Notes: generated by a model from the sequence alone, not told the origin. Positions 35,305 through 63,424 are shown, counted from the first letter of the stretch. The stretch is 64,000 bases of DNA from Bdellovibrionota bacterium (GCA_046328905.1 JAXLVP010000001.1:3175541-3239540); one strand, 5' to 3'. Translations and numbers: made by a program.

Positions 35305-35879
35305 ACTGCCTCCCTCTTTGTTATCGGTATCCAACAGATGTTCATCTTTTTGAGCTCTGCGATCGTGCGTAGTTCGTAGGACTTCAAACCAGCGAGGTTC
35401 GTGACACAAGAGTCAGCCCAGTCTTCAACGACGAGTTTTGCTGCGGCTTGAGTATTGGGGGCATCTACAAATGTCATCGCTCCCTGTGGGGCTATCGGAG
35501 CGAGGAGCGGCCGCAGATCCGGAATGCACGCACATCGATTTCCGTTCGGAGTGCCGCTGCGACTCGCAAAATAGAGCGGTGGATTGAAAAGCCAAAACGC
35601 ATATTCGGAACGTACCTCGAATGTCAGGTCGAGTGTCGCTTTCGCCGCCAAATGATGAACGTGCGGGAGAAACATGAGTCGCCGAGCTCGGGAGGGATGT
35701 TTCAAAATCTCCAGACCCTCGTCGAAGGTCGGTGCGTGGATGAGGCGTGAGGTGAGCGATCGATCCCGCAGAAAATGTTGCGCCGCCCGGTCACAACAGG
35801 TCCCAGGAGGAAGGGAGATAACTTCGAGCTCCTCTTCAGACCCTGAGGTCGCTCTGGTTGAACTGCCACGACACATCAT
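35301..35879 (-). CDS. hypothetical protein (middle gene of MarR-GNAT operon)
   Basis: Translationally coupled on both sides. No family recognised. Start is uncertain (35879 or 35915). Confidence 0.5.
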   Translation of the reverse strand: MMCRGSSTRATSGSEEELEVISLPPGTCCDRAAQHFLRDRSLTSRLIHAPTFDEGLEILKHPSRARRLMFLPHVHHLAAKATLDLTFEVRSEYAFWLFNPPLYFASRSGTPNGNRCACIPDLRPLLAPIAPQGAMTFVDAPNTQAAAKLVVEDWADSCVTNLAGLKSYELRTIAELKKMNICWIPITKREAV

Positions 35880-36814
35880 AAATCGGTGATGTACCACTCG
35901 TCGCAAGCTTTCCACAGAGCGGGGCCGAATCGTTGCCGGCTCCGTTTAAACCCGCACTTCTCGTAAAGGCCTTTGCCAAGAGCCATCCGGCTCGTTGTCT
36001 CAACGTAGCATCGCTGGAAACCGAGCTCTCGCGCCTTCTCGAGACATGTCTCGAGAAGGCGTTTCCCTAGTCCAGCTTGTCTCGCCTCCGGCAAAACAAA
36101 CAGCTTTCGCAGCTCGCAGATATGTTTCGGCGCTTCAGCGAGCTCAGCGATTCCAGCCGACCCGACGATTTTCTCATTCCGAACAGCCACGAGATACAGC
36201 GCGCGCGGCTTCTGAAATGCCTCGTAGGGCGAGCTGAACTCCTCAGGATAGGCGAAATATTCCGGCCCATCGAATCCGAATTCATTCATCACTTTCCGAA
36301 TGAGCTGTGTCACTTGCGCGTTGTCGCCACGTCGAATCGGACGGATGTCGTAGTTCTGTTGAAGGCGTACCTTCTTCAACGTTTTGGCGAAGAGTGAAAC
36401 ACCTTCTTCGAGTATTCCACGTTCGGAACGAGAGAGCAGAGCGAGCACTTGCTCGGCGGTAGCGGAGCGCTGTCTGTTGGTGCTTTCGATCAGCTCATGA
36501 CCCTTCTTGGTCGGGAGAATCGGCTTCTGACGCTTGTCACGTGCATCGACAGCGGTCTGCACCAGACCGGAGCTCACCAGAGAGCTGATGAGGCGGCTCG
36601 CGGCCGACTTATCGATTTCGAGAGCGACAGCAAGCTCGGCTGTGGTCCGGACACCCTGCGTCGTCACCTCGAAGAGTGCTCGCAACCCCGAGACGCCGAC
36701 CTCATCAGCTATCTCTGCTTTTTCGAGGAGCCGTAGTTCCGTCAGCAGCGAGTTGAGCGCCTCGCAGAGGCTGCGAGTCTGGTCCAATGGGATAGCTTTC
36801 GACGGTAGGTGCAT
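35876..36814 (-). CDS. MarR-family HTH fused to GNAT N-acetyltransferase
   Basis: N-terminal winged-helix MarR-like segment (TTAELAVALEIDKSAASRLISSLVSSGLV). C-terminal GNAT motifs (RRGD..Q and LFVLPEARQAGLGKRLL). Confidence 0.8.
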   Translation of the reverse strand: MHLPSKAIPLDQTRSLCEALNSLLTELRLLEKAEIADEVGVSGLRALFEVTTQGVRTTAELAVALEIDKSAASRLISSLVSSGLVQTAVDARDKRQKPILPTKKGHELIESTNRQRSATAEQVLALLSRSERGILEEGVSLFAKTLKKVRLQQNYDIRPIRRGDNAQVTQLIRKVMNEFGFDGPEYFAYPEEFSSPYEAFQKPRALYLVAVRNEKIVGSAGIAELAEAPKHICELRKLFVLPEARQAGLGKRLLETCLEKARELGFQRCYVETTSRMALGKGLYEKCGFKRSRQRFGPALWKACDEWYITDL

Positions 36815-36890
36815 AAGTCAACCAATCAGGTGTCACACGCAAGCATAGCATCCCGCCCGCCGAAAGACAAACGCGCTGACGGACTCACAA

Positions 36891-36928
36891 ATCGTATCCT
36901 CAGGGCGTCCGATATTTTCGGGGACAAT
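36891..36928 (+). repeat. palindromic repeat element (same family as 58.9-63.4 kb copies) with GGGGACAATG tail
   Basis: ATCGTATCCTC-AGGGCGTC-CGATAT-TTTC-GGGGACAATG lies in the MarR-GNAT / Cys-rich-gene intergenic region, about 77 nt upstream of the MarR-GNAT start. Confidence 0.5.
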
Positions 36929-37323
36929 GCATAGTGAAACTGTCACTTCGGTAAGCGCGATAACGTTCAACTGGGACGAATGGCGTGAACGCTGAAGACC
37001 GAGGTAAGCGACGAGGGCGGGGATCAGGAGAAACGATAGGAGTTGCGAGGAATGGTCAGAATCGGGAGGAATAGTACGAAGAGCGACGAACGCAAGAATC
37101 GGGCATGATTGTGAGGGAGCTTCGTGGAGACCACAAACGGGTCATGACTCGTTGGAACGTCAATTGAGACCCTTCGTTCGCCGAAGCCTCAGTGCAAACC
37201 TTCAACTTACCATGGGACGATGCTCGCTCTCGGATGCTTGAATAGGAGATTCGTGATAAATCTTCGTCGACGCTGCACGGAGAGTAGCGTCCTCAGAAAA
37301 ACGAACGACTCTAGAGCTCCGCG

Positions 37324-39018
37324 ATGGATTTATTCTGCGCCGTTTCTAACTCGAAATTCAACTTCTCAACGGAAGATCAAGCTCTCCTCGAGCGGCTTTC
37401 TCCCCGGATCAATGGAGTGACCTATCCACTCCCTCCTCCGAAATTATCTCCTGACGAGCGCAAGCGTCGGCGCTGGGCATTTCGAAATGAACGCCACCTC
37501 TATCACCGAAAATGTGATTTCAGCGGGAAGGCGATCGTTACAAATTACTCCCCAGACAAAAAGCTTACTGTGTATTCGAAAGAGGATTGGTGGTCAGACA
37601 ATTGGGACTTCCGGTCGTATGGCCGCGACTTCGATTTCAACAGGCCGTTTTTTGAGCAGTTCGCGGATCTGTTCGCGGTAGTGCCGAAGGTAGCTCTTAC
37701 TACCTCACCGGACGCCGATGAGAATAACTGCCGCTACATCAACTTCGCAGGCAGTAGTAAGAACTGCCACATGGTTTTCGATTCCGATTTCGACGAGGAC
37801 TGTTACTTTTCCAACGTTCTGAAACATTCGAAGAACTGTGCGGACTGTTCCTATGTCCACAGCTCAGAGCTTTGCTACGAATGTGTCGACTGCACGAACT
37901 GTTATGCGCTTCTCTACAGCCAAAATTGTGCGAGCTGCAGCGAAAGCTACTTTCTCGACCAATGTGTCGGATGCTCCAACTGCTGCCTCAGCGCAAACTT
38001 GGTGCAGAAGCAATACTACTTCCGAAATAAGCCCTATTCGCGGGAGGGGTATTTTCGACTGGTCGAATCGCTCGAGCTCGAGAAGCGCACCAGCGTCGAG
38101 TCGCTCCGCGAATCATTCCGTGTCTCGCTGCTCGATTTTCCAAAAAAATATTGTCAAATCCTTCGATCCGAAAACTGCACCGGCGACTATATCGTTAACT
38201 CGCGAAACATCCATTCGAGCTTCAACGTCGCCTCCGCCGAAGACCTTCGTTATTGCGACTCGCTCTATGCGGCGCGGAACTGCATGGACGTGTCTTCTTT
38301 CGGGGAGCAAATTGACCATGTGTACCAGAGCGGCACCATTGGCATCAACGTAACGAATACATTCTTCTCCCTCTGCGCCGTGGCAAACTGCGCGGACCTC
38401 TTCTACTCCGTTGATGCGCGCATGAGTCGACATTGTTTTGGGAGTGCGGGCGTCAAGCGCGCCCAGTTCTGTATTCTCAACAAGCAATACACCGAGGAAG
38501 AGTATTTCCGCTTGCTACCGCGAATCATCGCGCACATGCAAGCGACGGGAGAGTGGGGCGAGTTCTTCCCGATCTCGCTTTCGCCTTTCGGCTATAATGA
38601 AACTATCGCTCAGGACTTTTTTCCACTTACCGAGACGGAGGCGGGGACGCTCGGGGCCAAATGGAGCAATTACCTATCTCCCGCTCCCGATGTCCCGGCA
38701 CTTTCGGCAGAGGCTGTACCTGACACCATCGATGCGGTGACTGCAGACGTGTTGAAAAAGGCGATTCAGTGCCCGATCAGCAACAAGGTTTTCCGCATCG
38801 CCGACCCGGAGCTTGCATTATACCGGAAGTTGCGGATTCCGTTGCCGACAAAACACCCAGACGTACGGCATCAGCGCCGGATGGCGCTTCGTAACCCGCA
38901 ACACCTTTGGGCGAGGCAGTGTGCGAAAACCGGCGAGCGGATACTGAGCACTTACTCTCCGGAATCGCAGGCAATCGTCTATGGAGAGTCAGCTTTCCTA
39001 GAGAGCGTTCACGCATAA
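37324..39018 (+). CDS. cysteine-rich tandem-repeat protein of unknown function
   Basis: 564 aa with about 40 Cys. Residues roughly 150-260 form a ladder of C-x2-C pairs spaced 9-12 residues apart (NCRY..KNCHMV..EDCYFS..KNCADCSYV..LCYECVDCTNCYAL..NCASCSESYF..QCVGCSNCC). Further C-x2-C and CP-x-S zinc-ribbon-like motifs occur toward the C-terminus. Confidence 0.6.
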   Translation: MDLFCAVSNSKFNFSTEDQALLERLSPRINGVTYPLPPPKLSPDERKRRRWAFRNERHLYHRKCDFSGKAIVTNYSPDKKLTVYSKEDWWSDNWDFRSYGRDFDFNRPFFEQFADLFAVVPKVALTTSPDADENNCRYINFAGSSKNCHMVFDSDFDEDCYFSNVLKHSKNCADCSYVHSSELCYECVDCTNCYALLYSQNCASCSESYFLDQCVGCSNCCLSANLVQKQYYFRNKPYSREGYFRLVESLELEKRTSVESLRESFRVSLLDFPKKYCQILRSENCTGDYIVNSRNIHSSFNVASAEDLRYCDSLYAARNCMDVSSFGEQIDHVYQSGTIGINVTNTFFSLCAVANCADLFYSVDARMSRHCFGSAGVKRAQFCILNKQYTEEEYFRLLPRIIAHMQATGEWGEFFPISLSPFGYNETIAQDFFPLTETEAGTLGAKWSNYLSPAPDVPALSAEAVPDTIDAVTADVLKKAIQCPISNKVFRIADPELALYRKLRIPLPTKHPDVRHQRRMALRNPQHLWARQCAKTGERILSTYSPESQAIVYGESAFLESVHA

Positions 39019-39071
39019 AGTATGAGGGGAAGTTCCAGCGAGGCTTCCGACTCTCCGAATCCAGCAAAGCC

Positions 39072-39575
39072 ATGGCCATGTTTGTACATCTCGCGGTTGC
39101 ATCAAGTGCGAGTCGAATTGAACGCAACGGAATCAACCGCTTGCGGAAATCGGTTGGTTCCTCTTCAGGCGGAGTGTTCGCAGTTCCTGTCGTTCGGAAT
39201 TTCTACGTTTCGCATCAATGGCTGAGAGAGCTCAAAAGACGAAATCGAGGCGCTATCATAGGCGTTTATTTTCGGATCGCGGACGACCAACCCGTCTGGA
39301 TCGGACACTACGGTCGCGCACACCAGCAGGTCACTGCCGCGGAAGCCGTTGCGGAGTTCGATCGGGCCGAAGATCGCCAAGGTTGGGAGGTGATTATCCC
39401 GCGCCGCATCACGGCAAAAGAGATTCATCGCATTCGCTTTCTGCCTCAGGTCATTGGTTGGCGTTTCTCGCCTACCGCCAAAGGAAAGAAGCCATTTTGT
39501 GCCTGTAAATTCTGCACTCTCGGCGAGTATGGGGCTCGCAAGCTTCGGAAGCGTTTGGGACGAGATATGGACTAA
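39072..39575 (+). CDS. hypothetical basic protein with C-terminal CxCxxC
   Basis: Start placed at the internal ATG after the upstream stop at 39018. C-terminus is KPFCACKFC plus a K/R-rich tail. Confidence 0.45.
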   Translation: MAMFVHLAVASSASRIERNGINRLRKSVGSSSGGVFAVPVVRNFYVSHQWLRELKRRNRGAIIGVYFRIADDQPVWIGHYGRAHQQVTAAEAVAEFDRAEDRQGWEVIIPRRITAKEIHRIRFLPQVIGWRFSPTAKGKKPFCACKFCTLGEYGARKLRKRLGRDMD

Positions 39576-39727
39576 GCGGTGCATCCGATCTGAACGAGGT
39601 CGGTAAAGCGTCCATTGAAGAAAACCGCCTCACCGACCACTTCGCGGTGGGATTCGAATAAAGACCGAAGCGAATTCGGCCGAAGCTCATAATCAGGATT
39701 GAAAGCTTCTGAGCTCCCAAGGTCGGG

Positions 39728-40549
39728 ATGGAAATAGGTAGTATCAACAGCTCTTCAGCGCTCGTTCCGAGCCCTGCGCGTCGGACCGAAGGTGCAGCAC
39801 CTCAAGCAGCCTCGAACGCACCTGCAGATTCAGCCCCCTCGCTGCCCGAAGAAAGATTGCGCGCTCGTGCCGGCGGAGCGTCTTTCTCCTACCTCACTTC
39901 AGAGGGGGATCGAGTAACACTGACCGCCTACAGTCAAAATGGCGTGAGCCTCGAGCGGAGAGCGACCGCAACGAATGAGGTGTATTCGTTCGAGGAGCTG
40001 AAGTCCGCCTATGCGTCCGAGGGATTCTCTCTTCAAGTGGAGGGAGATCTGAACGAAGCCGAAATCAAGGATCTGGAGACGGCAGTGAACGTGACTCGCG
40101 GCGTCGTTGATGATCTCGCTCACGGCTCGACATCAAGCATTTTATCAGTCTACGGCTTAGCCGGTCTCGATACCATTGACCACATAGAGCAAGGCTCCGT
40201 ATTTCGAGCGTCTATGGCAACCGCGTTCGAGCCTATCGTTCTACAAGACAACTCGAGGCCGCTGACGCTCGATATGGGGTCGCGGCCGCCAACAAGAGAG
40301 AGAAACAACTACGTTCCGCTCGAAGAACGGGACCCCGGCCTAGTGGTAAAGAACGAGCAGCTACAAGCTCAGACGAAAGATGAGATGGGGGACGCCCTTG
40401 CCGGGCTCTTTGATCTCTTGCATGCGGGACAGAAAGTGACGAGTTTTCAAGCTCTCGCGGCGGTCACTTACAGCCAACAGATAGCGGCTTGGCTGTCCGA
40501 TCCGCAACACGCTTCGAACGGCGGCGGCTTGGGTCGAATTGCGGCTTAA
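39728..40549 (+). CDS. hypothetical protein
   Basis: 273 aa with an Ala/Pro/Ser-rich N-terminus. No motif recognised. Confidence 0.5.
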   Translation: MEIGSINSSSALVPSPARRTEGAAPQAASNAPADSAPSLPEERLRARAGGASFSYLTSEGDRVTLTAYSQNGVSLERRATATNEVYSFEELKSAYASEGFSLQVEGDLNEAEIKDLETAVNVTRGVVDDLAHGSTSSILSVYGLAGLDTIDHIEQGSVFRASMATAFEPIVLQDNSRPLTLDMGSRPPTRERNNYVPLEERDPGLVVKNEQLQAQTKDEMGDALAGLFDLLHAGQKVTSFQALAAVTYSQQIAAWLSDPQHASNGGGLGRIAA

Positions 40550-41415
40550 AGAACAGCATCACGCTTGCCAGGTGTTGAGGTCGGGAGCGAACTATCGTAC
40601 CGCCCGGAAAGGATGCCCCAGATGTCGGAAATCCGAAACAGACTTGCTCGCCGTTCCCAGAGTCGTTGATAGGCTGCCGAATCCGGCCATCGATAATAGC
40701 TCCCCGAATCGGTGGCCTGAGATGAAGCTGTGAGCTCGCCGCGGCTGAACTTGTCGAGGACTTCCGGAAGAAGCTGCGCTGCGCCGAGAGCCGTGAGGTA
40801 ATAACTGAGCTGAACCGAGCGCACGTTCGAAAGACTGAACCTGTGTTGAGCTAATACTCCGCCGGTGTCGATCGACTCGTCCTCTATCAGGTGCAGCGTG
40901 CACCCGTGTTCGGCGGCTCCCTCGCTGAGTGACCAAAAATAAGGCTGTATGCCACGGAAGTCCGGGAGCAGCCCAGGATGGATGTTTATCACTCCCAGCC
41001 GGGGCACCGCGAGAAGGGGTTTTCTGACGATCTGATGCATCAACGTGATGATTACGTCGGGTGAGAAAGCTTGAAGCGCTGCGATTGTGTCTTGCGAATT
41101 GATGTCCGTCGACTCAATGTATTTCGCACCCACGTTCCGGGAGATCCAAGACAGGCGACGGAATACTGCTCCGCGTCGCATGACCTTCGGGCAGTAGGTG
41201 AGCGTAAGGAGGCCAAGGTGCTCGACGAGCTTCGCAACAATGAAACGTCGCGAAAGCTTCGGGAGCACGCTCGAGGCGCTCTCCATGCGGCTCTTCGCTC
41301 GCAGGGTGAGAGGAACCTTGATAACCAGAAGCTCATTCTCGGGACGCAGCGAGTGATATCGCTCGATAATGTGGTTATGGAGGACGTATTCAGAGAAAAG
41401 GAATGCGATCCGCAT
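40546..41415 (-). CDS. formyltransferase family protein (Fmt/ArnA N-domain-like)
   Basis: GVINIHPGLLPDFRGIQPYFWSLSEG matches the formyl_trans_N catalytic region (N-I-H-P-S/G-L-L-P-x-x-R-G). Confidence 0.75.
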   Translation of the reverse strand: MRIAFLFSEYVLHNHIIERYHSLRPENELLVIKVPLTLRAKSRMESASSVLPKLSRRFIVAKLVEHLGLLTLTYCPKVMRRGAVFRRLSWISRNVGAKYIESTDINSQDTIAALQAFSPDVIITLMHQIVRKPLLAVPRLGVINIHPGLLPDFRGIQPYFWSLSEGAAEHGCTLHLIEDESIDTGGVLAQHRFSLSNVRSVQLSYYLTALGAAQLLPEVLDKFSRGELTASSQATDSGSYYRWPDSAAYQRLWERRASLFRISDIWGILSGRYDSSLPTSTPGKRDAVL

Positions 41416-58941: not shown

Positions 58942-59092
58942 AATATCGTGTCCGCTCGATATCGTGTGCTCTGAGGACTCGATATGGGGACAGTGTAAGT
59001 TGAATATCGTGTGCTCTGAGGACTCGATATCGGGGACAGTGCGTTGAATATCGTGTCCTCTGAGGACTCGATATATTGAGGACGAGTTACGA
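58942..59092 (+). repeat. tandem array (about 3.5 copies, 44-bp period) of a palindromic repeat element
   Basis: Units GAATATCGTGTGCTCTGAGGACTCGATAT + CGGGGACAGTG(yr) repeat with 1-2 mismatches. The core forms a 13-bp stem hairpin (ATATCGTGTCCTC / GAGGACTCGATAT). Confidence 0.7.
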
Positions 59093-59424: not shown

Positions 59425-60936
59425 ATGGTGTCCTCTACTCTTGACGCTCCGGAACTCGCTGTACCGGACGCGGCTCTGACTGTCGCTCAACGTTTTCTTA
59501 AGCAATCTGTAATTCCGGCTCTGGTCGGTGGAAAGCCCGAGCTCGGTTCGTACAGCGGAACTTTTAAAGTCTTCGATCCGGGAAATACCTCGGAACCGAT
59601 CGCCACCGTCGCGCTGATGGATGGTGCCGACGTTAATCGTGCCGCGGAACAGGCGCTTAAAGCATTTCAGAAGACTGATTGGGCGCGCATGACGCCGTCG
59701 AAACGGTCGGAGCTGCTGCATCGATATGCCGACAAGATTCACGAGCTGCGTGAAGTCGTCGCAGCGCTCGAGACGCTGGAGGCAGGCAAGATCTACGAGC
59801 AGTCGCTGGGTTGCGTCGACAACTGCGTCACAACGCTCCGCTACTATGCGGATCTCGCCGCCAATTTCGGTTGGACCTCACCGGTGGAAGGCTGTGAAGT
59901 TGCGCATTACGCGCACTACCAGCCATCGGGCGTGTGCGGTCTGATCATTCCGTGGAACTTCCCGGTTATACTTTACGGATGGGGAGTCGCGCCGGCGCTT
60001 GCCGCTGGTAACACGGTGGTCATTAAGCCCGCAGAAAACACTCCGATTGCGACGCTCTACCTCGCGAGCCTCGCCAGCCAAGCCGGAATTCCGGACGGGG
60101 TGATCAACGTGGTTCCTGGCTTCGGCCGGGATGCAGGCGCGGCGTTGGCGGCCAATCCGAATCTCGGTCACATGCGATTCACGGGCAGCCCGGGAGTTGC
60201 AGCGGCCGTCGGAATGGCATGTGCGCAGAACCATGTCCCATTCGCGAGCGAAGCAGGCGGGAAAGGTGCGGCCTATGTCGCGGAAGATGCGGATGTGGAA
60301 GCTGCTGCCAAGAACTTGGCCGCCGCGATCACATTCCACGCCGGACAGGTCTGTTGTACGGCAACACGCATCGTGCTGCATCGCAGCGTGGCGGACGCGT
60401 TCCTCGACAAATATCTTACGGCGGTGAAAACCGTGAAAATCGGTCATCCGATGCACAAAGGCACCGAGATGGGACCGCTGGTGAGTGAGGTGCAACGCCA
60501 ACGCGTGTTGGGCTATGTCAACCGAATCCGTCCGCGCGGCAACTTCCTGCTCGAAGGCGCCGCCGTCGAATCTGCCGAAGGGATGCCCGGCTGCTATGTC
60601 TCGCCGTGTATCTTCGAAGCGCCGGTCGACCACGCCGCCAACCAAGAAGAGATCTTCGGACCCATGGCCGGCGTCCTCCGTGTCGGCAGCGACGAGGAAG
60701 CGACACGTGTCGTGAACTCGTCCAAGTATGGTCTGTCGAATTCGATCTTCACCGCAGATCCCGAACGCTACCTGGCCCTCGCGAAAGCGCAACGTGTCGG
60801 AAACGTCTGGCACAACGCACACAACGTCTTCGCACCGGGCCTGCACTACGGGGGCGTAGGCATCTCCGGTAACGCCGGCGTGAATTCGATCGACACGATG
60901 CTGCAGACCTGCCTGCGTTCGTCGATCATGGCGTAG
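59425..60936 (+). CDS. aldehyde dehydrogenase family protein
   Basis: GQVCCTATRIVLH catalytic Cys region, the EAGGKG variant of ELGGKS, PWNFPV, and VIKPAENTP. Confidence 0.85.
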   Translation: MVSSTLDAPELAVPDAALTVAQRFLKQSVIPALVGGKPELGSYSGTFKVFDPGNTSEPIATVALMDGADVNRAAEQALKAFQKTDWARMTPSKRSELLHRYADKIHELREVVAALETLEAGKIYEQSLGCVDNCVTTLRYYADLAANFGWTSPVEGCEVAHYAHYQPSGVCGLIIPWNFPVILYGWGVAPALAAGNTVVIKPAENTPIATLYLASLASQAGIPDGVINVVPGFGRDAGAALAANPNLGHMRFTGSPGVAAAVGMACAQNHVPFASEAGGKGAAYVAEDADVEAAAKNLAAAITFHAGQVCCTATRIVLHRSVADAFLDKYLTAVKTVKIGHPMHKGTEMGPLVSEVQRQRVLGYVNRIRPRGNFLLEGAAVESAEGMPGCYVSPCIFEAPVDHAANQEEIFGPMAGVLRVGSDEEATRVVNSSKYGLSNSIFTADPERYLALAKAQRVGNVWHNAHNVFAPGLHYGGVGISGNAGVNSIDTMLQTCLRSSIMA

Positions 60937-62867: not shown

Positions 62868-62990
62868 TATATCGCGTATATCAAGTCACGTGTATCCCGC
62901 GTCCTCGGAAGATGCGATATCGGCGACGGTGACCCCGAGCGGCTAACAGACTGCCGAGGCCTATCGTATCCTCTGAGGAGCCGATATGGT
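62868..62990 (+). repeat. two degenerate copies of the palindromic repeat element family
   Basis: TATATCGCGTATATC...GCGATATCGGCGACGGTG and CCTATCGTATCCTCTGAGGAGCCGATATGG lie between the ankyrin gene and the Phd-like gene. Confidence 0.5.
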
Positions 62991-63353: not shown

Positions 63354-63396
63354 TTAGTGTATGCTTTCGAAGCGTATGTTTTTGGAAAGTCCTTCA

Positions 63397-63424
63397 TCGG
63401 GTCCTCTGAGGATACGATATCCGG
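63397..63424 (+). repeat. inverted-orientation copy of the palindromic repeat element
   Basis: TCGGGTCCTCTGAGGATACGATATCCGG is the near reverse complement of the 62960-62990 copy. Confidence 0.5.

What the first reader, a model, noticed from the sequence alone, without database searches (positions are those of the whole stretch)
37324..40549. 564-aa protein made of tandem Cys-x2-Cys ladder repeats, followed by two unknown genes
The ORF at 37324-39018 has about 40 cysteines arranged as C-x2-C pairs, recurring every 9-12 residues for more than 100 residues (NCRY, KNCHMV, EDCYFS, KNCADCSYV, LCYECVDCTNCYAL, NCASCSESYF, QCVGCSNCC). It carries more zinc-ribbon-like CP-x-S / C-x2-TG motifs near the C-terminus. 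I cannot place it in any family I know (not DnaJ CR, not LIM, not ferredoxin, not metallothionein, not a radical SAM). It is followed on the same strand by a basic protein ending in CACKFC (39072-39575) and a 273-aa unknown (39728-40549). A copy of the palindromic repeat element sits in its promoter region. This could be an undescribed metal- or redox-handling or polyvalent zinc-ribbon module.
Basis: seen in the sequence. Interest (0 to 1): 0.7.

Follow-up and report, generated by a model that had tools for sequence, protein, structure and literature searches.

The report
Cysteine-ladder beta-helix protein, uncharacterised family
The gene encodes a soluble protein from a large, unnamed family in which two tight beta-helix rods with a cysteine/serine core are capped by two zinc-finger-like end modules; the cysteines look like packing, not a metal array, this copy has lost its zinc sites, and the two genes after it are unrelated.

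Summary
The ORF (37324-39018, 564 aa) is real, but it has 27 cysteines, not about 40; 38 is the family median. It belongs to a large family with no Pfam, NCBIfam or PDB match over its central 350 residues: 2,459 clusters at 50% identity, nearly all about 560 aa. Members occur mainly in Gracilibacteria-class Patescibacteria, with some in Bdellovibrionota.

The architecture is an internal double duplication, Z-R-R'-Z'. The ends are basic treble-clef zinc-finger modules (zf_Tbcl / CxxC-x17-CxxC type). The middle is two repeat blocks.

The window copy is one of 3% of members with no complete terminal zinc site. In Patescibacteria the family forms same-strand tandem arrays of up to 9 copies, flanked by a TrmB-like regulator and a soluble VirD4-like ATPase. 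The window copy is single, with neither partner.

The downstream genes are an unrelated conserved family and an orphan ORF, so there is no three-gene module. Function is unknown; a scaffold or adaptor role is my best inference.

The parts
37324..39018 (+). [not shown]
   Evidence: The ORF is. An identical protein is annotated 'hypothetical protein U0136_13975 [Bdellovibrionota bacterium]', with more than 3,256 homologues. There are 2,459 clusters at 50% identity at E<=1e-30. GC1/2/3 of 0.52/0.42/0.64 is typical coding. There is no second copy in the window. No transmembrane segment is predicted (max KD19 1.27).
37324..37698 (+). [not shown]
37699..38031 (+). R1, residues 126-236. This is the Cys/Ser-ladder repeat block, modelled as a tight beta-helix of 12-residue coils. 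The inward positions fall at every third residue (136, 139, ... 232).
38032..38139 (+). L1, residues 237-272. This is the helical hairpin that follows the 'N-K-x-Y-S-K-E-E-Y' cap of R1.
   Evidence: AF2 helices span 240-249 and 255-269. The segment is homologous to the start of the H region (hhalign probability 94%). Sequence entropy is high (3.0-3.3 bits).
38140..38487 (+). R2, residues 273-388. This second repeat block is a diverged duplicate of R1, with longer and more regular beta-strands.
   Evidence: hhalign of R1+L1 against R2+H gives probability 99.9%, E 1e-36, and R1 against R2 gives E 4e-29. 3-residue Cys periodicity is present in sub-blocks. AF2 strands at 357-360, 369-372 and 381-384 are 12 residues apart, and pLDDT is 82-95.
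38488..38757 (+). H, residues 389-478. This acidic helical/aromatic region (pI 4.1) holds most of the most conserved stretch of the family (residues 380-440, which begins at the end of R2): YCILNKQYSKEEY...GEWGEFFP...SPFGYNET.
   Evidence: It has the lowest entropy in the protein (0.8-1.7 bits). Invariant or near-invariant residues are N386, Y389, Y394, H404, E410, W411, G412, S420, Y424, N425, E426 and W447. pLDDT is 96-99. It has no match in any library.
38758..39015 (+). [not shown]
   Evidence: hhalign result. Homologues hit zf_Tbcl_2 / TIGR04272 at residues ~514-558. Family-wide the four Cys are 100/94/97/95% conserved. The window keeps only C533. Only 9 of 269 members lack every complete terminal site.
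36891..36913 (.). Weak copy of a palindromic element that recurs in the window (core ATCGnnTCCTCTGAGGAnnCGAT). It lies in the 509-bp divergent intergenic region.
   Evidence: There are six sites in the window against 0.06 expected, and this one has 3 mismatches. It appears as inverted pair I12. It is 77 bp from the MarR-GNAT start (36814, - strand) and 411 bp from the ATG at 37324.
35876..36814 (-). Divergently transcribed MarR-type winged-helix plus GNAT acetyltransferase gene. It is a neighbour, and no link to the Cys-rich gene has been shown.
   Evidence: Pfam hits are MarR_2, MarR and Acetyltransf_1. Similarity to the TrmB-like array neighbours of Patescibacteria is only marginal (E 0.036). 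It is not conserved next to close homologues.
39072..39575 (+). Gene for a 167-aa basic protein. It belongs to an unrelated, very strongly conserved family and is not part of a module with the Cys-rich gene.
   Evidence: It has 1,048 homologues at 67-74% identity in Planctomycetota, Acidobacteriota and others. The gene stands alone, with no Cys-rich neighbour, in L086-L090. There is no Pfam, NCBIfam or PDB match.
39728..40549 (+). 273-aa orphan ORF. It is not part of a conserved module.
   Evidence: Its only hit among 5.8 billion proteins is itself. It has no family hits. GC1/2/3 of 0.64/0.49/0.58 is compatible with coding but is not proof.

Best explanation
What it is (shown):
- The gene encodes a soluble cytoplasmic member of a large protein family that has no name.
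- This window copy is single and has lost the zinc ligands of all four terminal knuckles.
- The two genes after it are unrelated to it.

How the ladder works (well supported, about 0.7):
- Each repeat block is a very tight beta-helix of 12-residue coils, in which every third residue points inward.
- The cysteines, interchangeable with Ser, Val or Leu, are the small residues that fill this narrow core.
- This is the geometry of the beetle antifreeze protein beta-helix, but without its disulfides.
- The ladder is therefore a packing device that makes a rigid rod. It is not a row of zinc sites or a redox array.

What it does (inferred, about 0.3):
- The protein is a non-enzymatic rigid scaffold or adaptor.
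- Its two arginine-rich end modules, and the highly conserved acidic/aromatic region at residues 380-447, hold a ligand or partner at fixed geometry. The ligand is most plausibly a nucleic acid or a partner protein.
- In Patescibacteria, ancient paralogues of differing specificity are encoded in tandem. They sit under a TrmB-like regulator, directly upstream of a soluble VirD4/FtsK-type ATPase.
- They probably serve that ATPase as adaptors or cargo.
- The Bdellovibrionota copy works without that partner and without zinc.
For: Architecture:
- Homologues hit zf_Tbcl at the N-terminus and zf_Tbcl_2 / TIGR04272 at the C-terminus.
- The CxxC-x17-CxxC domain binds zinc experimentally in M. mazei small proteins (PMC12704099).

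Ladder as beta-helix core:
- Across 269 sequences all R1 cysteines lie on one 3-residue phase (0.42/0.01/0.00), and period-12 pairs give P<5e-5.
- Ladder positions are 55-97% Cys with Ser, Val or Leu substitutes.
- Cys presence/absence is uncoupled in the ladder (phi <= 0.41, best at i,i+12). The terminal knuckles are all-or-none (phi 0.92-1.00) and serve as an internal positive control.
- i,i+6 pairs are anti-correlated (mean phi -0.16), and the Cys count shows no parity bias (125 even, 144 odd).
- AF2 with 104 sequences gives pLDDT 90.7 and pTM 0.90, with strands every 12 residues.
- The TmAFP coil is a 12-residue unit with C2, S5, C8 and A11 pointing inward (PMC8038014).

Soluble, with basic ends:

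Context in Patescibacteria:
- 82 loci hold 259 full copies. 57 loci have 2 or more copies, the maximum is 9, and 55 of those 57 are all on one strand.
- A TrmB-like gene is present in 34 loci at a median 87 bp, mostly divergent upstream.
- A VirD4/TraG-like ATPase without a transmembrane segment is present in 24 loci at a median 127 bp, downstream on the same strand.
- Paralogues are ancient. Within-locus identity has a median of 42% and a maximum of 60%, and 86% of copies have a closer relative in another genome.
- VirD4-type genes of Patescibacteria are known to lie mostly away from virB4 and are of unknown role (PMC12102498).

Window copy:
- It is single, with no TrmB-like or VirD4-like relative in 64 kb.
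- It is one of 9 of 269 members with no complete terminal zinc site.
Against: - No function has been tested, and no library gives a functional name.
- A cytoplasmic rod lined with reduced thiols could still bind soft metals such as Cu(I) in a way that tolerates variable Cys number. The covariation test cannot exclude that.
- The many conserved polar residues in 380-447 could be an active site rather than an interface.
- The link to the VirD4-like ATPase is by adjacency only, in 24 of 82 loci, and does not apply to the window genome.
- Covariation statistics were not corrected for phylogeny.
Confidence: 0.5

Rival explanations
1. Metal- or redox-handling protein. The CxxC ladder binds a row of zinc ions or Fe-S clusters, or stores soft metals such as Cu(I) along a thiol-lined core. 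Alternatively, it acts as a redox sensor through reversible disulfides.
For: The protein has 15 Cys in 86 residues, seven of them in CxxC spacing. The family median is 38 Cys. Several ladder Cys are highly conserved: C217 94%, C220 97%, C383 97%. The protein is cytoplasmic, so its thiols would be reduced and available. From my own knowledge, Csp copper-storage proteins line a bundle core with Cys.
Against: - Cys occupancy in the ladder is nearly independent between positions, while the family's real zinc knuckles are all-or-none.
- Ser, Val and Leu replace Cys freely.
- i,i+6 pairs are anti-correlated and the Cys count shows no even-number preference, which argues against obligate disulfides.
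- No ferredoxin, DnaJ-CR, metallothionein or other metal-domain model matches any of 36 members.
- The strict period-3, single-phase pattern over 100 residues fits a solenoid core, not discrete knuckles.
- A 12-residue coil leaves little room for a metal (PMC8038014).
Confidence: 0.12
2. Translocated effector. Family members are substrates of a type IV-like export route and are recognised by the adjacent VirD4-like coupling ATPase through their basic C-terminal module. They are delivered into host or prey cells by episymbiotic Patescibacteria and predatory Bdellovibrionota. From my own knowledge, tandem paralogue arrays next to a coupling-protein gene resemble the Bartonella bep effector loci.
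For: Arrays end in a VirD4/TraG-like ATPase on the same strand. The C-terminal module is strongly basic, pI 10.0. The family is concentrated in lineages that live on or prey on other bacteria. Patescibacterial VirD4 homologues lack a known role.
Against: - The ATPase has no membrane anchor in 19 of 22 copies.
- The proteins end in a folded zinc finger, not a disordered tail.
- Paralogues are ancient and evolve slowly: the median best match in another genome is 58% identical, and none are recent duplicates. That is unlike typical effector repertoires.
- The window genome region has no such ATPase.
- There is no signal peptide.
Confidence: 0.15
3. Subunits of a hetero-oligomeric structure. The six to nine ancient paralogues assemble together, for example end-to-end or side-by-side through their beta-helices. 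They would form a cytoskeletal or architectural assembly specific to these small cells.
Against: - Copy number varies widely between loci, from 1 to 9.
- Bdellovibrionota and many Patescibacteria contigs carry a single copy.
- Both solenoid ends are capped by other domains, which from general knowledge of beta-solenoids normally blocks end-to-end polymerisation.
- This does not explain the adjacent ATPase.
Confidence: 0.1
4. Enzyme of unknown activity. The beta-helices and end modules position a substrate for an active site formed by the nearly invariant polar and aromatic residues of 380-447. Paralogues would differ in substrate specificity.
Against: - No catalytic-domain model matches any member.
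- The 'I-x-N-K-x-Y-S-K-E-E-Y' part of the conserved stretch is duplicated after R1 (N235), so it is more likely a structural cap than a catalytic motif.
- The coil length is 12 residues, not the 18 of hexapeptide transferases.
- There is no fold match outside the solenoids.
Confidence: 0.1
5. Three-gene functional module. The Cys-rich gene, the 167-aa gene and the 273-aa gene form one operon with a joint function.
For: They are on the same strand with short gaps of 53 and 152 bp.
Against: - Their phyletic distributions are completely different.
- The 167-aa gene is never next to a Cys-rich family gene in L086-L090.
- Close homologues of the Cys-rich gene have other neighbours.
- The third ORF has no relatives.
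Confidence: 0.03

Closest known systems
Beetle hyperactive antifreeze protein (Tenebrio molitor TmAFP, PDB 1ezg): right-handed beta-helix of 12-residue coils TCTxSxNCxxAx
   Different: - There is no detectable sequence homology.
- There is no signal peptide, so the protein is cytoplasmic.
- There is no i,i+6 disulfide signature: the pairs are anti-correlated and Cys-count parity is random.
- R1 has no TxT ice-binding face.
- The helix is embedded in a 564-aa multi-domain protein. The resemblance is best read as convergence.
zf_Tbcl (PF13451), zf_Tbcl_2 (PF23477) and the CxxC-x17-CxxC domain (TIGR04272): small probable treble-clef zinc fingers, shown to bind zinc in Methanosarcina mazei small proteins
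   Same: The end modules of most family members match these models (18, 8 and 11 of 36 members). They keep the exact CxxC-x17-CxxC spacing. Their cysteines are gained and lost as units, as expected of a zinc site.
   Different: - In this family the fingers cap a large protein instead of standing alone.
- Most matches fall below the curated cutoffs.
- The window protein has no match at all and keeps one ligand out of four in each knuckle.
- The function of these domains is itself unknown.
Other beta-solenoid proteins: curli CsgA, phi29 gp12 appendage, ryegrass and spruce-budworm ice-binding proteins, left-handed beta-helix acyltransferases and gamma-carbonic anhydrases, bactofilin
   Different: There is no sequence relationship. 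Coil lengths differ (15-22 residues against 12). Those proteins have a hydrophobic or Asn/Gln core rather than a Cys/Ser core. They lack the flanking zinc-finger modules.
Effector gene arrays next to a type IV coupling-protein gene (for example Bartonella bep genes beside virB/virD4; from my own knowledge, not tested here)
   Same: In Patescibacteria, tandem paralogues with a conserved modular plan lie directly next to a VirD4-type ATPase gene.
   Different: The ATPase here lacks a membrane anchor and is not near virB4-type genes. The paralogues are ancient and slowly evolving. Nothing shows export. The window copy has no such neighbour.

Membership tests
zf_Tbcl (Pfam PF13451) | Match to the family HMM at or above the gathering score (24 bits) | tested here: not met
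   The window protein has no hit even at E<=1. Among homologues, 8 of 36 hit at E<=0.01, and P0080 and P0109 pass the cutoff at residues ~2-50.
zf_Tbcl (Pfam PF13451) | Two CxxC pairs forming the zinc site | tested here: not met
   The window reads C5, S8, S42, E45. Family-wide these positions are Cys in 100/81/91/80% of members.
zf_Tbcl_2 (PF23477) / CxxC-x17-CxxC domain (TIGR04272) | Match to the HMM at or above the curated cutoff (27 and 36 bits) | tested here: not met
   The window protein has no hit. Homologues hit in 18 of 36 (Pfam) and 11 of 36 (TIGR04272) cases, mostly below the cutoff. P0116 passes the Pfam cutoff with 30.5 bits.
zf_Tbcl_2 (PF23477) / CxxC-x17-CxxC domain (TIGR04272) | CxxC, 17 residues, CxxC | tested here: not met
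   The spacing is kept but the ligands are lost. The window reads C533, T536, G554, A557, while the family has Cys at 100/94/97/95%.
zf_Tbcl_2 (PF23477) / CxxC-x17-CxxC domain (TIGR04272) | Binds one zinc ion | not testable with these tools
   Zinc binding was shown by ICP-MS only for M. mazei small proteins (PMC12704099). It is predicted to be absent in the window protein.
Beetle AFP-type 12-residue beta-helix (TmAFP) | Tandem 12-residue coils | tested here: met
   [not shown]
Beetle AFP-type 12-residue beta-helix (TmAFP) | [quoted passage not shown] | tested here: met
   All Cys lie on a single phase over residues 133-234 in 269 sequences, and the other residues at these positions are Ser, Ala, Val, Leu or Ile. 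The TmAFP pattern is described in PMC8038014. Side-chain direction itself was not inspected in the model.
Beetle AFP-type 12-residue beta-helix (TmAFP) | Intra-coil i,i+6 disulfides that hold the coil | tested here: not met
   i,i+6 Cys pairs are anti-correlated (mean phi -0.16). The R1 Cys count is even in 125 and odd in 144 members. The protein is predicted to be cytoplasmic.
Beetle AFP-type 12-residue beta-helix (TmAFP) | Secreted, with a TxT ice-binding face, and sequence homology to TCTxSxNCxxAx | tested here: not met
   There is no N-terminal hydrophobic segment and no T-x-T in R1. No PDB sequence match is found by phmmer or by profile.
4Fe-4S ferredoxin-type, DnaJ cysteine-rich, LIM and metallothionein metal domains | Match to the corresponding models or signature (CxxCxxCxxxCP; CxxCxGxG; very high Cys fraction) | tested here: not met
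   No such Pfam or NCBIfam hit appears over the centre in any of 36 members. LIM matches only the C-terminal finger, weakly (2 of 36 members; PDB profile E 0.01). Residues 184-193 read CxxCxxCxxC without CP. The Cys fraction is 4.8%.
Left-handed beta-helix (hexapeptide-repeat) transferases / gamma-carbonic anhydrases | Hexapeptide-repeat model match and 18-residue triangular coils | tested here: not met
   [not shown]
Substrate or partner of a VirD4-type coupling ATPase | Gene linked to a VirD4/TraG-type ATPase gene | tested here: not met
   The window has no relative of the ATPase in 64 kb. For the family in Patescibacteria, the ATPase is present in 24 of 82 loci and lies downstream on the same strand in 15 of the 17 cases within 600 bp.
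Substrate or partner of a VirD4-type coupling ATPase | Physical interaction with, or translocation by, the ATPase | not testable with these tools
   This needs pull-down, two-hybrid or complex prediction, and none was available here.
Known anti-phage defence systems (PADLOC) and phage protein families (PHROGs) | Match to a defence or phage family model; presence on viral contigs | tested here: not met
   PADLOC gives no hit. PHROGs gives none for the window protein; one homologue hits phrog_15341 (unknown function) at E 7e-7. IMG/VR contains no relative.

The most novel reading that the evidence does not exclude
The family could be the missing working partner of the 'orphan' VirD4-type ATPases of Patescibacteria. 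In this reading, arrays of ancient paralogues are rigid Cys-core beta-helix rods with zinc-finger ends. They act as specificity adaptors or cargo for a soluble hexameric translocase under a TrmB-like regulator. Together these would form a previously undescribed cytoplasmic nucleic-acid- or protein-handling system tied to the episymbiotic or predatory lifestyle. The zinc-free single copy in Bdellovibrionota would be a horizontally shared, stand-alone derivative. A second exotic possibility, not excluded, is that the thiol-lined helix core carries a chain of soft-metal ions.
Probability: 0.25. Interest if true: 0.8.

Novelty: new variant of a known kind. Interest (0 to 1): 0.62.

Why it matters
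The family is large (at least 2,459 clusters at 50% identity) and is conserved at housekeeping-like rates. It occupies about a third of the DNA in the 82 loci I fetched around family genes in species-representative and other assemblies of Gracilibacteria-class Patescibacteria. Yet it has no name, no domain model over its central 350 residues, and no mention in the literature I could search.

Three points would interest specialists:
- **A new structural solution:** the protein appears to use a cytoplasmic 12-residue beta-helix whose core is filled by reduced Cys and Ser. That geometry is otherwise known from secreted, disulfide-locked beetle antifreeze proteins.
- **A lead on an open question:** its tight linkage to a soluble VirD4-type ATPase gives a concrete lead on what the thousands of VirD4 homologues of Patescibacteria that lie away from any type IV secretion genes actually do.
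- **A reusable test:** comparing Cys presence/absence covariation in the ladder with that in the zinc knuckles of the same protein separates structural cysteines from metal ligands. The same test can be applied to other Cys-rich unknowns.

For the window itself the result is more modest: a single, zinc-site-depleted family member with no conserved neighbours.

Tried and rejected
- **Family and sequence searches.** Pfam, NCBIfam, PADLOC and PHROGs on the window protein gave nothing. PDB sequence search with the protein found nothing. With the family profile it found only weak LIM/CRP similarity to the last 30 residues.
- **Fold searches.** Foldseek against the PDB gave nothing below E 3.8. The AlphaFold database library was unavailable.
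- **First model.** The first AF2 model, built from 36 sequences, had pLDDT of only 58-70 in the repeats. I replaced it with a 104-sequence model.
- **Viral contigs.** No relative was found.
- **Rfam.** Scanning 35.5-41.5 kb found nothing. The sigma-70 promoter scan found no site in 36.7-40.7 kb.
- **Literature.**
  - The cysteine-rich proteins of Peribacteria in PMC4736985 are large secreted proteins, a different thing.
  - The Gracilibacteria metaproteome paper has nothing relevant.
  - Two further searches found no description of the arrays.
- **Palindromic element as a regulon clue.** Its strong copies lie near an aldehyde dehydrogenase gene, an ankyrin-repeat gene and an unknown ORF, which is uninformative.
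- **MarR-GNAT as the counterpart of the TrmB-like array neighbour.** The similarity is marginal (E 0.036), so I rejected this.
- **Disulfide-locked TmAFP-like helix.** Rejected on i,i+6 anti-correlation and Cys-count parity.
- **Discrete Zn(Cys)4 knuckles in the ladder.** Rejected on covariation and substitution pattern.
- **Three-gene operon.** Rejected on comparative context.

Full report
**1. The observation**

Several details need correcting.
- The protein has 27 cysteines, not about 40, and seven overlapping CxxC pairs.
- Fifteen of the 27 lie between residues 136 and 221.
- Nine pairs are exactly 12 residues apart (P<5e-5 against random placement). Seven pairs are 3 apart (P=5.5e-4).

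The ladder is real and far from chance, but its period is 3 within a super-period of 12, not 9-12. The gene has a normal coding signature, with GC3 of 0.64. An identical protein is annotated as hypothetical in a 3.26-Mb Bdellovibrionota MAG contig.

**2. No named family, but a very large one**

None of the libraries names the protein.
- Pfam, NCBIfam, PADLOC and PHROGs give nothing for the window protein.
- PDB sequence search finds nothing.
- Foldseek against the PDB finds nothing below E 3.8.

Yet the protein has more than 3,256 homologues at 40-62% identity over its full length. An exhaustive profile search finds 2,459 clusters at 50% identity at E<=1e-30. The best 150 are almost all 540-600 aa and match in one stretch.

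Named sources are Peribacteria, Peregrinibacteria, Gracilibacteria, Abawacabacteria and SR1, which form the Gracilibacteria-class Patescibacteria. A minority come from Bdellovibrionota and Oligoflexia. IMG/VR viral contigs contain no relative.

**3. Architecture**

Profile-profile alignment within the family shows two internal duplications.
- Residues 4-89 match residues 482-558 (E 7e-30).
- Residues 131-263 match residues 280-407 (E 1e-36).

The Z modules of many homologues match known zinc-finger models.
- Pfam zf_Tbcl matches the N-terminus.
- zf_Tbcl_2 and NCBIfam TIGR04272 (CxxC-x17-CxxC) match the C-terminus.
- The counts are 8, 18 and 11 of 36 members, mostly below the curated cutoffs.

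That domain binds zinc in Methanosarcina mazei small proteins, where its function is unknown (PMC12704099). No member has any match over residues 126-478.

The protein has no hydrophobic segment. The Z modules are basic (pI 9.2 and 10.0), and R1 and H are acidic.

**4. The window copy has lost its zinc sites**

I aligned 269 family members. In most of them two of the four terminal knuckles are complete zinc sites.

The window protein reads CSSE, CSSD, CSHV and CTGA at the four sites. Only 9 of 269 members, 3%, lack every complete site, and it is one of them.

**5. What the ladder is**

Four independent lines point the same way.
- **Phase.** Over residues 133-234 and 269 sequences, mean Cys frequency by 3-residue phase is 0.42/0.01/0.00. 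Fourier power is concentrated at period 3. The residue before each rung is often Asn or Asp.
- **Substitution.** Ladder positions are 55-97% Cys. The replacements are Ser, Val and Leu, for example Leu at 15% of position 214 and 37% of position 371. That is what buried positions look like.
- **Covariation, with an internal control.**
  - In the terminal knuckles, Cys are gained and lost together: phi is 0.99-1.00 for 67/85/88, 1.00 for 486/514 and 0.92 for 8/45.
  - In the ladder no pair exceeds 0.41, and the best pairs are 12 apart, which would be stacked rungs.
  - Pairs 6 apart would be the disulfide partners in beetle antifreeze protein. They are anti-correlated (mean phi -0.16), and the Cys count shows no even-number bias, with 125 even and 144 odd.
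- **Structure prediction.**
  - With 104 sequences AlphaFold gives pLDDT 90.7 and pTM 0.90. Short strands recur every 12 residues (165/177, 209/221, 357/369/381). pLDDT is 71-82 in R1 and 82-95 in R2.

I had predicted the TmAFP geometry from the sequence periodicity before this search. TmAFP is a right-handed helix of 12-residue coils in which C2, S5, C8 and A11 point inward (PMC8038014).

My conclusion is that the ladder is the small-residue core of two tight beta-helices. It is neither a stack of zinc knuckles nor a disulfide-locked helix. Four caveats apply.
- R1 confidence is only moderate.
- I could not inspect the model coordinates.
- The covariation statistics are not corrected for phylogeny.

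**6. Genomic context**

In the window the gene is single. Its neighbours are as follows.
- **Upstream:** a divergent MarR-GNAT gene.
- **Downstream, first:** a 167-aa gene from an unrelated family.
  - It has 1,048 homologues at 67-74% identity, mainly in Planctomycetota and Acidobacteriota.
  - It stands alone in other genomes.
- **Downstream, second:** a 273-aa ORF whose only database match is itself.

Close single-copy homologues of the Cys-rich gene sit in entirely different neighbourhoods. The three-gene module is therefore not supported.

The palindromic element is real, with six sites against 0.06 expected. The upstream copy is the weakest and lies nearer the MarR-GNAT start.

**7. Context in Patescibacteria**

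The picture there is very different. I examined 82 loci holding 259 full-length copies.
- 57 loci have 2 or more copies, 31 have 4 or more, and 8 have 7 or more. The maximum is 9.
- In 55 of the 57 multi-copy loci all copies are on one strand.

Two neighbours recur.
- **TrmB-like winged-helix protein, about 250 aa.** It is present in 34 loci at a median 87 bp, usually divergent upstream.
- **VirD4/TraG-type ATPase, about 750 aa.** It is present in 24 loci at a median 127 bp, downstream on the same strand. It lacks a transmembrane segment in 19 of 22 copies.

The canonical order is T< F>xN V>, seen for example in L009, L063, L065 and L043.

The paralogues are old. Within-locus identity has a median of 42% and a maximum of 60%. 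In 86% of cases a copy has a closer relative in another genome than in its own locus. These are conserved subfamilies, not recent expansions.

A recent survey counted 5,713 VirD4-type genes in Patescibacteria with only 148 near virB4, and left their role open (PMC12102498). It does not mention these arrays. The window has neither partner.

**8. Most likely function**

The following is shown:
- a soluble multi-domain protein;
- a duplicated architecture;
- loss of the zinc sites in this copy;
- a family-level association with a regulator and a soluble translocase-type ATPase.

The following is inferred:
- The protein is a rigid, probably non-enzymatic scaffold.
- Its basic end modules, and the nearly invariant acidic/aromatic stretch at residues 380-447, hold a nucleic acid or a partner protein.
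- In Patescibacteria the paralogues act as adaptors or cargo for the ATPase.

I put about 0.85 on the architecture, 0.7 on the ladder being a packing core, and 0.3 on the adaptor/cargo role. The rivals, each with its evidence and refutation test in the structured fields, are metal or redox handling, an exported effector, a hetero-oligomeric structure, and an unknown enzyme.

**9. Comparison and novelty**

The parts belong to known kinds: treble-clef zinc fingers and a 12-residue beta-helix. But the window protein fails the membership tests of both.
- It matches neither zinc-finger HMM and lacks the zinc ligands.
- It has no disulfide signature, no secretion signal, no ice-binding face and no sequence homology to TmAFP.

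Three things appear undescribed in the libraries and literature I could search:
- the combination of these parts;
- the cytoplasmic Cys/Ser-core helix;
- the array-plus-ATPase locus.

I rate it a new variant of known kinds. There is a 0.25 chance that it marks a new cytoplasmic system built around the orphan VirD4-type ATPases.

Noticed in passing
window 39072-39575 (+): The 167-aa basic protein belongs to an unusually conserved family with no name. It has 1,048 homologues at 67-74% identity across Planctomycetota, Acidobacteriota and Bdellovibrionota. Invariant residues are C143, C145, C148 and five histidines. There is no Pfam, NCBIfam or PDB match. Homologues align over the full 167 aa, so the NCBI start (144 aa) looks too short.
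   Followed up: partly
window 39728-40549 (+): This is a 273-aa orphan ORF rich in Ala, Ser and Leu. Its only match among 5.8 billion proteins is itself. It overlaps the convergent formyltransferase-like gene (40546-41415, -) by 4 bp. Whether it is a real gene is open.
   Followed up: partly
window 58961-59072, 62963-62985, 63396-63418 (and weak copy 36891-36913): A 23-bp palindromic element, ATCGnnTCCTCTGAGGAnnCGAT, has six sites against 0.06 expected. Three tandem copies 44-45 bp apart lie upstream of an aldehyde dehydrogenase gene (59425-60936). One copy lies 47 bp upstream of an unknown 139-aa ORF (63465). It looks like an operator of an unidentified regulator.
   Followed up: partly
L009, L063, L065, L043, L024, L061, L058 and other loci: Patescibacteria have a conserved locus plan: a divergent TrmB-like gene, 1-9 tandem Cys-ladder genes, then a soluble VirD4/TraG-like ATPase with an N-terminal DUF8128 region and no membrane anchor. 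This may explain part of the 'orphan' VirD4 homologues reported in PMC12102498.
   Followed up: partly
L053 (Nitrospirota MAG), L047 (Micrarchaeota MAG), L012 (Gammaproteobacteria MAG): Family genes occur on contigs binned to unrelated phyla. L053 carries the full Patescibacteria-type arrangement (two copies, the ATPase, and a TrmB-like gene). These contigs are probably misbinned.
   Followed up: no
L021, L036, L054, L056, L062, L077, L082: In these loci the family genes are intact only when UGA is read as a sense codon (code 25). That fits Gracilibacteria/SR1-type recoding and shows the family spans both genetic codes.
   Followed up: partly
homologue P0024, residues 171-225: The ladder region of one homologue matches phage family phrog_15341 (unknown function) at E 7e-7, although no full family relative is found on IMG/VR contigs. 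A similar Cys-ladder repeat may exist in some phage proteins.
   Followed up: no
window 36815-37323: The intergenic region upstream of the Cys-rich gene is 509 bp long. It has no sigma-70-like promoter match and no Rfam match. It holds one small imperfect palindrome at 37136-37153.
   Followed up: partly
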